Source: the human T2T-CHM13v2.0 reference genome, Homo sapiens
Direction: 5' to 3'
NCBI GenBank assembly: GCA_009914755.4
Contig: CP068257.2
Location: 26,272,001 to 26,336,000, forward strand
Length of the DNA: 64,000 nucleotides
The notes beneath the pieces are model-generated. The model saw nothing but the letters and a program-made list of their open reading frames with translations, was not told the origin of the DNA and did not search any database. Positions 16,371-16,782 of the stretch are shown piece after piece; the stretch's first letter is position 1, and each line of letters opens with the position of its first letter. The translations under genes and the position numbers were made by a program.

Positions 16371-16545
16371 CTTTTTTTTTTTTTTTGAGATGGAGTCTCG
16401 CTCTGTCACCCAGGCTGGCGTGCAGTGGCATGATCTCGGCTCACTGCAAGCTCTGCGTCCCGGGTTCACGCCATTCTCCTGCCTCAGCCTCCCGAGTAGC
16501 TGGGACTACAGGTGCCCACCACCACGCCCGGCATGCTTCCCTTCC
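16371..16545 (-). mobile_element. Alu right-arm-only fragment (about 165 bp plus 16-nt poly-T), antisense, abutting the L1 5' truncation point
   Basis: tttttttttttttttgagatggagtctcgctctgtcacccaggctggcgtgcagtggcatgatctcggctcactgcaagctctgcgtcccgggttcacgccattctcctgcctcagcctcccgagtagctgggactacaggtgcccaccaccacgcccggc then stops. No left monomer, no obvious TSD. ORFs 16390-16677 and 16441-16644 are translations of it. Confidence 0.8.
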
Positions 16546-16782
16546 CTTAAGGGTTTGAGCATCTGTGGTGGCCAAACAGACAAGCCACACGCCTGTCACA
16601 TGTCCTGCAAGGGAGGTGGGGGAACTCTCCCATTTCACTATCAAAAGAATTTACTGTTCGTTCCAGTCAATACCTAACTATAGGGCGCTGACCTCCTTTA
16701 TTTATTTTTGACAGCTTACAATTGTCAATTATTTCTCTGATCCTTTAAAAGGTAGTCTTCCCTTAAGGGAAGGGGAGCATGC
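16531..16782. repeat. 23-bp terminal inverted repeat pair (22/23 match) flanking a 206-bp spacer
   Basis: Left arm 16531-16553 gcatgcttcccttcccttaaggg. Right arm 16760-16782 cccttaagggaaggggagcatgc, whose reverse complement is gcatgctccccttcccttaaggg. Each arm contains the palindrome ccttaagg. Confidence 0.7.

What the first reader, a model, noticed from the sequence alone, without database searches (positions are those of the whole stretch)
16531..16782. 23-bp near-perfect terminal inverted repeats flanking a 206-bp spacer, at the junction of a truncated L1, a half-Alu and an unclassified block
The left arm is gcatgcttcccttcccttaaggg. The right arm is cccttaagggaaggggagcatgc, which matches it at 22 of 23 positions as an inverted repeat. 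Each arm itself contains the palindrome ccttaagg. The left arm begins at the last bases of a right-arm-only Alu fragment (16371-16545) that lacks a TSD. That fragment in turn abuts the 5' truncation point of an antisense L1. A 23-bp TIR flanking about 200 bp is the signature of a MITE-like non-autonomous DNA transposon. It could equally be the edge of a larger unrecognised repeat, or a cruciform-capable palindrome left by a rearrangement or repair event. No repeat family that I can recall explains it.
Basis: seen in the sequence. Interest (0 to 1): 0.5.

Follow-up and report, generated by a model that had tools for sequence, protein, structure and literature searches.

The report
Flipped end of a retroviral LTR
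The 23-bp inverted repeat is not a mobile element: one old retroviral LTR had its last 107 bp plus 122 bp of neighbouring DNA flipped, probably when an Alu inserted next to it, and 23 bp were copied to both sides of the flipped piece.

Summary
Arms 16531-16553 and 16760-16782 pair at 22 of 23 positions, and about 0.0003 such pairs are expected by chance in this window.

The MITE reading fails. The "unclassified block" on the right is an antisense solo LTR, probably class I (ERV1-like). Joining rc(16760-17453) to 16554-16637 rebuilds a 778-bp LTR. That LTR aligns end to end with at least 10 independent family copies, and each of those copies has the arm only once.

- Both arms are LTR positions 672-694.
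- Both arms carry two private substitutions absent from all 15 paralogues compared.
- The LTR's 4-bp target duplication (CTAC) sits at 17454-17457 and, flipped, at 16638-16641.

So segment 16531-16759 is a 229-bp micro-inversion, and the 23 bp were duplicated in inverted orientation at one breakpoint. The other breakpoint is exactly where a 5'-truncated, poly(A)-tailed AluY is attached. This matches the recently described local inversions made by remodelling of L1 ORF2p-induced breaks, but the link to the Alu is inferred, not shown.

No target duplication flanks the 252-bp unit. The unit recurs only inside near-identical multi-kb copies of the whole block, which look like human segmental duplications. 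This is an ordinary rearrangement scar of modest interest.

The parts
12647..12664 (+). Candidate target-site duplication of the antisense L1, 3'-flank copy (ACTACCTTTGCAATTCTC), directly left of the L1 T-rich tail
   Evidence: It matches rc(16739-16756) at 13 of 18 positions, with a 9-nt exact core. The match exists only if 16638-16759 is read inverted. P is about 0.005-0.04, so this is suggestive only.
12665..16371 (-). 5'-truncated old L1: ORF2 residue ~99 to the end, then 3' UTR and A-rich tail
   Evidence: No ORF2 residues 1-98 are found nearby. Tail sequence read.
16372..16386 (-). Poly(A) tail of the Alu, seen as 15 T on the + strand; it starts exactly at the left breakpoint of the inversion
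16387..16532 (-). 5'-truncated AluY-like right monomer (consensus positions 136-281, 93.8% identity)
   Evidence: Rfam SRP and mir-1268 (Alu-derived) hits at 16385-16535 on the minus strand. A 2-bp GC overlap with the left arm.
16531..16553 (+). Left arm: LTR positions 672-694 in sense orientation on the + strand (the displaced copy)
16554..16637 (+). Last 84 bp of the LTR (positions 695-778, ending ...CCCATTTCA), flipped onto the + strand
   Evidence: It aligns to the bases that directly follow the arm in every full-length paralogue, but in the opposite orientation to the LTR body.
16638..16641 (+). 3' copy of the LTR's 4-bp target-site duplication (CTAT here; CTAC in copies L002 and L012)
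   Evidence: It matches rc(17454-17457) = CTAC.
16638..16759 (+). 122 bp of original flank between the LTR 3' end and the L1 5' end, now inverted. It includes the candidate L1 5' target duplication at 16739-16756, and CTT at 16757-16759.
   Evidence: No paralogue of this segment was found in the window or the fetched loci.
16757..16772 (.). Perfect 16-nt palindrome CTTCCCTTAAGGGAAG spanning the inversion junction 16759|16760
16760..16782 (-). Right arm: LTR positions 672-694 in their original place, continuous with the LTR body
16783..17453 (-). Body of the solo LTR (positions 1-671). It starts TGATATGG at 17453, with TATAAG at 17287-17282 and AATAAA at 17040-17035 on the minus strand.
   Evidence: Colinear alignment to at least 10 independent paralogues at 70-78% identity. 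Motifs read.
17454..17457 (+). 5' copy of the LTR's 4-bp target-site duplication (GTAG, which is rc of CTAC)

Best explanation
The two arms are two copies of one internal 23-bp stretch (positions 672-694) of a single antisense solo LTR of a primate retroviral family, probably class I (ERV1-like).

Inferred ancestral order on the + strand: antisense L1 5' end, then 122 bp of flank, then the LTR 3' end (84 bp + arm), then the LTR body.

A 229-bp piece (arm + 84 bp of LTR end + 122 bp of flank; now 16531-16759) was then turned around. The 23-bp arm was kept at its old place as well (16760-16782). This gives an inverted segment bracketed by a 23-bp inverted duplication. That outcome is expected when one of the two breaks is staggered by 23 nt, or equivalently when a hairpin-capped end is opened 23 nt off-centre and filled in.

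The other breakpoint is exactly where the poly(A) tail of a 5'-truncated AluY is attached (16371|16372). The Alu's truncated 5' end is joined to the flipped arm through a 2-bp GC microhomology. The most likely cause is therefore a single L1-ORF2p-driven (target-primed reverse transcription) Alu insertion. In that event the broken 'reciprocal' DNA end was resected, looped back, re-opened and re-joined in inverted orientation.

Shown: that the arms are LTR sequence, that the segment is inverted, and that the arm is duplicated. Inferred: the coupling to the Alu and the hairpin intermediate.

The structure has no evident function. It is a repair scar that was later copied along with its surroundings by segmental duplication.
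For: 1. Window 16760-17455 aligns colinearly to family copies, while 16531-16637 aligns to the adjacent and overlapping bases of the same copies in reverse orientation.
2. The rebuilt LTR, rc(16760-17453) + 16554-16637 = 778 bp, aligns over positions 1-778 with L033, L004, the L013 group, L026, L023, L025, the L006 group, L036, L029 and L028. Each carries one arm only.
3. The LTR has TG...CA termini (TGATATGG / CCATTTCA). Paralogues have their own 4-bp duplications: L004 TCAC, L006 ACAC. This copy has CTAC at 17454-17457 and CTAT at 16638-16641, which is CTAC in L002 and L012. The duplication therefore pairs only after un-flipping.
4. Both arms share CCCCTT and CCCTTAAGGG, where the family majority reads CCCCCT and CCCATAAGGGG. 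None of the 15 paralogues has these states. Near-identical copies show two arm types, each with one different mutation, so the arms were 23 of 23 in their common ancestor.
5. The candidate L1 target duplication is found only in the inverted reading of 16739-16756.
6. Poly(T) starts at the breakpoint. The Alu is AluY-like and 5'-truncated, with a GC overlap. The inferred nick site ATTC/AAGA is pyrimidine/purine, like L1 endonuclease sites.
7. Precedent for the Alu link: L1 and other TPRT insertions with inversion or inverted duplication of adjacent genomic DNA, explained by self-annealing and cleavage of resected ORF2p-made ends (bioRxiv 10.1101/2024.12.14.628481).
8. Precedent for the duplication: staggered breaks giving inverted duplications at inversion breakpoints (PMC1885836).
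Against: - No outgroup or paralogue with the un-inverted arrangement was found, so polarity rests on family copies and target duplications, not on an orthologous empty state.
- That GCATTC (L1 side) and AAGACT (the flipped end) were adjacent in the ancestor is inferred from a modest L1 target-duplication match (P about 0.005-0.04).
- The sequences flanking the Alu, GCATTCT and GCATGCT, match at 6 of 7 positions. This could be a short genuine Alu target duplication, and would then favour a separate, later Alu insertion.
- The inversion junction 16759|16760 shows no microhomology. The breaks implied around the arm (the exact nick positions depend on overhang polarity) do not look like L1 endonuclease sites.
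- The LTR family name could not be determined with these tools.
Confidence: 0.8

Rival explanations
1. Same inversion plus 23-bp inverted duplication, but unrelated to the Alu. A break or stalled fork was repaired by template switching or microhomology-mediated joining, using GCAT shared by the L1 5' end (GCATTC) and the LTR (GCATGC). An AluY later inserted at that junction by ordinary target-primed reverse transcription with a short target duplication.
For: GCATTCT left of the poly(T) and GCATGCT right of the Alu match at 6 of 7 positions. My own rough estimate for that match arising by chance is about 0.001-0.005. GCAT is native to both the L1 and the LTR, so it could have served as microhomology.
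Against: It needs an independent Alu to land within a few bp of the junction. The implied endonuclease site on the priming strand, GCTC/CC or GCTT/CC, has pyrimidines 3' of the nick, which is atypical for L1 endonuclease. A 6-7-bp duplication is short for an Alu.
Confidence: 0.3
2. Two separate insertions of the same LTR family in opposite orientation, each truncated, that happen to face each other.
For: Both pieces are LTR sequence in opposite orientation.
Against: - The two pieces partition one LTR exactly (positions 1-694 and 672-778), with a 23-bp overlap.
- The overlap shares two private substitutions absent from all 15 paralogues, and was 23 of 23 in the ancestor, although family copies differ from one another by 22-30%.
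- A single 4-bp duplication, CTAC, brackets the rebuilt element.
Confidence: 0.03
3. A MITE-like non-autonomous DNA transposon of 252 bp with 23-bp terminal inverted repeats.
For: A 23-bp inverted repeat flanks about 200 bp. TTAA lies inside each arm.
Against: - No flanking duplication of 2-10 bp.
- The arms and 84 bp of the 'spacer' are LTR sequence.
- The unit occurs only inside near-identical copies of the whole block, 1.1 to 5 kb long.
- No other copy in the window.
- 0 hits for a spacer 29-mer in viral and prokaryote-genome collections, which is weak evidence.
Confidence: 0.01
4. An assembly artefact or a selected functional hairpin (RNA gene or cruciform element).
For: The fold z-score is -3.9.
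Against: - The same structure is present in at least 9 independently assembled contigs.
- There are no Rfam matches apart from Alu-derived ones.
- The fold signal comes only from the arms.
- The arms lie downstream of the LTR's AATAAA and accumulate substitutions freely.
Confidence: 0.01

Closest known systems
Local inversions and inverted duplications of genomic DNA at L1/TPRT insertion sites, from remodelling of ORF2p-induced double-strand-break ends (bioRxiv 10.1101/2024.12.14.628481)
   Same: - A poly(A)-tailed, 5'-truncated retro-insert sits at one junction.
- A short inverted stretch of adjacent target DNA follows (229 bp here; 917 bp in their clone).
- One inversion breakpoint is next to the priming site.
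- The cDNA end is joined with little or no homology (2 bp here).
   Different: - The insert here is an Alu mobilised in trans.
- The event is germline-fixed and old, predating duplications that are now 2-5% diverged.
- Inversion and a 23-bp inverted duplication occur together.
- There is no microhomology at the inversion junction (their clone had 14 bp).
- The coupling to retrotransposition is inferred from position only.
Staggered-break model of inversions flanked by inverted duplications (Ranz et al. 2007, PMC1885836)
   Same: The inverted segment is bracketed by an inverted duplication of the sequence lying between two offset nicks. [quoted passage not shown]
   Different: The scale differs: a 229-bp segment with a 23-bp duplication here, against chromosomal inversions with duplications of 46 bp to 1.9 kb in Drosophila.
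Solo LTR of a primate endogenous retrovirus, probably class I (ERV1-like); MER4-like U5 motif recalled from memory
   Same: TG...CA termini, a 4-bp target duplication, TATA and AATAAA signals, and many dispersed copies 70-78% identical.
   Different: This copy's last 107 bp are flipped. The exact Repbase/Dfam family name could not be assigned with the available tools.
MITEs and other non-autonomous DNA transposons of primates (for example MER85/piggyBac or MADE1/mariner)
   Same: A short unit bounded by inverted repeats of about 23 bp, with TTAA inside the arms.
   Different: No target duplication, no independent copies, and arms and part of the interior derived from an LTR.
Twin priming (L1 5' inversion)
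   Same: An inversion created during target-primed reverse transcription.
   Different: Twin priming inverts the inserted retroelement sequence. Here the inverted DNA is pre-existing target DNA.

Membership tests
MITE / non-autonomous DNA transposon | Target-site duplication directly flanking the terminal inverted repeats | tested here: not met
   Flanks ...CACGCCCG and AGACGGAC...; no match for any length from 2 to 10 bp.
MITE / non-autonomous DNA transposon | Multiple dispersed copies of the unit in different genomic contexts | tested here: not met
   The unit was found only inside copies of the whole block, 95-100% identical and 1.1 to 5 kb long. There is no other copy in the window. A whole-genome search was not possible.
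MITE / non-autonomous DNA transposon | Termini and interior not derived from another repeat; TIRs related to an autonomous transposon | tested here: not met
   The arms and 84 bp of the interior are positions 672-778 of an LTR family.
Solo LTR of an endogenous retrovirus, probably class I (ERV1-like) | TG...CA termini with a short terminal inverted repeat | tested here: met
   TGATATGG ... CCATTTCA after reconstruction. The same ends are seen in L004 and L006.
Solo LTR of an endogenous retrovirus, probably class I (ERV1-like) | 4-bp target-site duplication | tested here: met
   CTAC/CTAT in the window and CTAC/CTAC in L002. In L012 only the 3' copy (CTAC) can be read, because its right flank differs. 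Paralogues: TCAC (L004), ACAC (L006).
Solo LTR of an endogenous retrovirus, probably class I (ERV1-like) | Dispersed family of copies, each colinear over the full length | tested here: met
   At least 10 independent loci align over positions 1-778 at 70-78% identity.
Solo LTR of an endogenous retrovirus, probably class I (ERV1-like) | Association with gammaretrovirus-type internal genes | tested here: inconclusive
   Only a sub-threshold Gag_p30 match (24.8 bits against a cut-off of 27.4), next to a divergent relative in L003.
Solo LTR of an endogenous retrovirus, probably class I (ERV1-like) | Match to a named Repbase/Dfam consensus | not testable with these tools
   No repeat library is available here.
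Inversion with inverted duplication at a breakpoint (staggered break or off-centre hairpin opening) | Segment in reversed orientation relative to the ancestral order | tested here: met
   Relative to all family copies and to the LTR's own target duplication. The L1 target duplication gives modest extra support.
Inversion with inverted duplication at a breakpoint (staggered break or off-centre hairpin opening) | The same sequence present once in the ancestor and twice, inverted, at the two ends of the inverted segment | tested here: met
   One arm per paralogue and two here. The arms share private substitutions and were 23 of 23 in the ancestor.
Inversion with inverted duplication at a breakpoint (staggered break or off-centre hairpin opening) | Un-inverted state at the orthologous locus of an outgroup | not testable with these tools
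   Protein-word, exact-protein and DNA-pattern searches found no outgroup.
TPRT insertion with local target inversion (ORF2p break-end remodelling) | Poly(A)-tailed retro-insert whose tail abuts one inversion breakpoint | tested here: met
   The poly(T) at 16372-16386 begins where homology to the L1 ends. The Alu 5' end abuts the flipped arm.
TPRT insertion with local target inversion (ORF2p break-end remodelling) | Far end of the inverted segment maps next to the priming nick in the ancestral sequence; endonuclease-like nick site | tested here: inconclusive
   Adjacency of GCATTC and AAGACT is inferred from the L1 target-duplication match only. The inferred site ATTC/AAGA is plausible but not canonical TTTT/AA.
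TPRT insertion with local target inversion (ORF2p break-end remodelling) | Insertion and inversion arose in one event | not testable with these tools
   This needs alleles or species with one feature but not the other.

The most novel reading that the evidence does not exclude
This is a germline-fixed record of an Alu target-primed reverse transcription event in which the reciprocal break end formed a 229-nt looped hairpin. The hairpin was opened 23 nt off-centre, in the manner of P-nucleotide formation, and flipped the target DNA. If so, ORF2p-induced break-end remodelling, so far shown for L1 and processed-cDNA insertions in cancer genomes and cell clones, would also operate with Alu in trans in the primate germline, and would leave recognisable 'inverted target duplications'.
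Probability: 0.45. Interest if true: 0.45.

Novelty: new member of a known kind. Interest (0 to 1): 0.25.

Why it matters
It removes a false lead: this is not a new MITE family. It also shows how a 'TIR-like' signature can arise from a micro-inversion inside a known repeat.

If the link to the Alu holds, the locus is a clean, base-resolved evolutionary example of retrotransposition-associated inversion of target DNA, with every junction readable. It suggests a search rule for finding more such scars: a retro-insert tail at one end of a short inverted segment bracketed by an inverted duplication.

On its own it has no evident functional consequence.

Tried and rejected
- Rfam scan of 14-20 kb: only Alu-derived matches.
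- Other copies of 16531-17700 in the window: none.
- Exact look-up of the 71-aa ORF spanning the right arm: not on record.
- The search for related loci with an 18-sequence alignment failed for lack of a conserved stretch. It worked with 7 sequences.
- tblastn with L1 ORF2p found no ORF2 residues 1-98 in the 122-bp flank or to the right of the LTR. The idea that the LTR had inserted inside a longer L1 was therefore dropped.
- Outgroup hunt. The 56-aa ORF of the right flank gave one 530-bp contig. A 35-aa query was too short. The reconstructed ancestral 52-aa ORF had no candidates. A 29-mer of the flank gave 0 hits in genome contigs and viral contigs.
- The rebuilt 'empty site' had no paralogues in the window or the fetched loci.
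- Left flanks of the Alu in L049, L050 and L043, and the right flank of L012, differ from the window. L049 and L050 switch sequence inside the Alu, so they look like assembly chimeras. They could not be used to test the L1/Alu junction.
- Fold-back priming of the 3' end CTT on AAG inside the palindrome was considered. It predicts ...GTCTTAAGGGAAGG, not the observed ...GTCTTCCCTTAAGGGAAGG, so it was rejected.
- piggyBac-like TTAA insertion was considered. The implied ends would be GGG...CCC rather than CCC...GGG, and the interior is LTR, so it was rejected.

Full report
**1. Observation**

The inverted repeat is exactly as described. The arms are 16531-16553 (GCATGCTTCCCTTCCCTTAAGGG) and 16760-16782 (CCCTTAAGGGAAGGGGAGCATGC). 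They pair at 22 of 23 positions and lie 206 nt apart.

It is far beyond chance. The expected number of such pairs (spacer up to 1 kb) is 2.6e-4 per window. None appeared in 40 simulated windows. The only other pairs of this quality in the real window are inverted Alu pairs.

As single-stranded DNA the unit folds with z = -3.9, purely through the arms. Rfam finds nothing but Alu-derived matches.

**2. Surroundings**

- To the left is an old L1 on the minus strand, running from ORF2 residue ~99 at about 16369 to its A-rich tail near 12665.
- Next come 15 T (16372-16386) and an AluY-like right monomer (16387-16532). It covers consensus positions 136-281 at 93.8% identity and is closer to AluY than to AluSx.
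- To the right of the arms, the minus strand reads like a retroviral LTR. It starts TGATATGG at 17453, with TATAAG at 17287-17282 and AATAAA at 17040-17035.

**3. Key result**

No repeat library was available. I therefore used spurious ORFs antisense to the LTR to pull human-derived contigs out of the protein and contig collections.

Window 16760-17455 aligns colinearly with these family copies. Window 16531-16637 aligns to the adjacent and overlapping bases of the same copies, but in reverse orientation.

Joining rc(16760-17453) to 16554-16637 gives a 778-bp element. It aligns over positions 1-778 with at least 10 independent loci at 70-78% identity: L033, L004, the L013 group, L026, L023, L025, the L006 group, L036, L029 and L028. 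Every one of them has the arm once.

The family has TG...CA ends and 4-bp target duplications. In L004 the duplication is TCAC and the LTR sits inside an Alu, so the family was active in primates. In L006 it is ACAC. A 4-bp duplication suggests a class I (ERV1-like) retrovirus. The only gag evidence is sub-threshold, and I could not assign the family name.

**4. One LTR, not two**

- The target duplication of this copy is CTAC at 17454-17457 (read as GTAG on the + strand). Its partner directly follows the flipped LTR end at 16638-16641. It reads CTAT in the window and CTAC in L002 and L012.
- Both arms carry two states, CCCCTT and CCCTTAAGGG, that none of the 15 paralogues has. The family majority reads CCCCCT and CCCATAAGGGG. 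The palindrome is therefore private to this copy.
- Near-identical copies of the block fall into two arm types. One has the left arm ...GCTT with the right arm ...AAGGG. The other has the left arm ...GCTC with the right arm ...AAGAG. Each type has one different mutation, so the arms were 23 of 23 in their common ancestor.
- The two LTR pieces partition the element exactly, into positions 1-694 and 672-778.

Two independent insertions are therefore excluded for practical purposes.

**5. The 122-bp remainder**

Segment 16638-16759 begins with the LTR's target duplication. It should therefore be the original flank, carried along in the flip.

A further check comes from the 18 nt left of the L1 tail, 12647-12664 (ACTACCTTTGCAATTCTC). 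They match rc(16739-16756) (ACTACCTTTTAAAGGATC) at 13 of 18 positions with a 9-nt exact core, and only in the inverted reading. This is where the L1's 5' target duplication should lie if the flank once abutted the L1 5' end. The support is modest (P about 0.005-0.04).

The inferred ancestral + strand is:

L1...GCATTC | AAGACTACC...(rc of the flank)...GATAG | TGAAATGG...(rc of the last 84 bp)...CTCAAA | CCCTTAAGGGAAGGGGAGCATGC | AGACGG...LTR body...CCATATCA | GTAG

**6. Mechanism**

The present sequence equals the ancestral one with the 252-nt piece from AAGACT... to ...GAGCATGC reverse-complemented, while the 23-bp arm is also retained at its old site.

Two routes give this geometry:
- Two breaks, one of them staggered by 23 nt and filled in. 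This is the staggered-break model for inversions with inverted duplications (PMC1885836).
- Equivalently, the resected reciprocal end loops back and is sealed to its own 5' end. It is then re-opened 23 nt into the stem and copied.

The left breakpoint is exactly where the Alu poly(T) is attached. The Alu's truncated end is joined to the flipped arm with a 2-bp GC overlap. The inferred nick, ATTC/AAGA, is pyrimidine/purine.

A recent study of induced L1 expression and of cancer genomes reports this class of event. It describes L1 and other TPRT insertions with short inversions or inverted duplications of adjacent genomic DNA. One inversion breakpoint lies next to the priming site. The authors attribute the events to self-annealing and cleavage of resected ORF2p-made ends (10.1101/2024.12.14.628481).

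I therefore favour a single Alu-insertion-coupled event.
- Shown: the identity of the arms, the inversion, the duplication, and the position of the Alu.
- Inferred: that the events were simultaneous, the hairpin intermediate, and the adjacency of the two sequences at the nick.

**7. Main rival for the mechanism**

The sequences on either side of the Alu, GCATTCT and GCATGCT (ancestral form), match at 6 of 7 positions. This could be a short Alu target duplication. It would then imply an earlier, Alu-independent inversion joined through GCAT microhomology, followed by a later Alu insertion.

Against this rival:
- An independent Alu would have to hit the junction within a few bp.
- The implied nick site, GCT(C/T)/CC, is a poor L1 endonuclease site.

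I give the rival about 0.3. An allele or species with only one of the two features would decide between the models.

**8. Recurrence**

The 252-bp unit does recur, but only inside near-identical (95-100%) copies of the whole block. Two of these copies are colinear with the window for 4.3 and 5 kb.

Most of these contigs come from human intestinal-biopsy metagenomes (PRJEB21933; PMC5769311). At least 7 distinct variants at 2-5% divergence therefore look like paralogous segmental-duplication copies in the human genome, not orthologues.

All of them carry the rearrangement, so it predates those duplications. The AluY identity puts it after the origin of AluY.

Some contig flanks differ from the window. 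Where I could check (L049 and L050), the switch occurs inside the Alu, which is typical of assembly chimeras.

**9. Verdict**

The MITE interpretation is refuted: there is no target duplication, no independent copies were found, and the arms are internal to an LTR.

The structure is a micro-inversion scar of a known kind with no evident function. The arms lie in U5, downstream of the LTR's own poly(A) signal, and they drift freely among copies.

Interest is modest. The one point of wider interest is that the locus may be a base-resolved germline example of retrotransposition-coupled inversion of target DNA.

Noticed in passing
window 16372-21525 and loci L002, L012, L043-L050: The whole block (Alu, flipped LTR and right flank, up to 5 kb) exists as at least 7 distinct variants 95-98% identical in contigs from human intestinal-biopsy metagenomes. 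Variant sharing among them is mosaic. This suggests a segmental-duplication family in the human genome, possibly with gene conversion.
   Followed up: partly
L013-L022 and L024 (LTR at about 2173-2926): One particular copy of this LTR family sits on 3.7-31 kb contigs at 5-16x coverage in at least 10 different metagenome assemblies. Why this human region is assembled so often and so deeply was not examined.
   Followed up: no
L004 1465-2220 and flanks: A family LTR is inserted inside an Alu with target duplication TCAC. The family was therefore active after Alu elements arose.
   Followed up: partly
L012 about 985-1432; L043 1-310; L049 1-2300; L050 1-60: The flanks of these low-coverage contigs do not match the window. 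L049 and L050 change sequence type inside the Alu, and L012 ends in a Nextera adapter (CTGTCTCTTATACACATCT...). These are probably assembly chimeras, though real duplication boundaries are not excluded.
   Followed up: partly
window 18258-18280 / 18658-18680 and 60555-61599: Two further 23-nt inverted repeats with at most 1 mismatch, both made by inverted Alu pairs. The first pair is only about 380 bp apart.
   Followed up: no
window about 10017-10902, minus strand: A second, more degraded L1 ORF2 fragment (32-58% amino-acid identity over residues ~569-919), just left of the main L1.
   Followed up: no
window 17006-17461 (+) and protein cluster P0001: A 151-aa ORF antisense to the LTR is recorded as a 'protein' cluster with 72 members in the public protein collection, with further clusters from paralogous LTRs. 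These are spurious gene calls on human DNA in metagenomes, but they are handy for fetching human repeat copies.
   Followed up: yes
window 16757-16772: The inversion junction creates a perfect 16-nt palindrome, CTTCCCTTAAGGGAAG. The 3 extra bases (CTT) come from the flipped end. By chance or otherwise, they repeat the CTT that precedes the palindrome in the LTR sense strand.
   Followed up: partly
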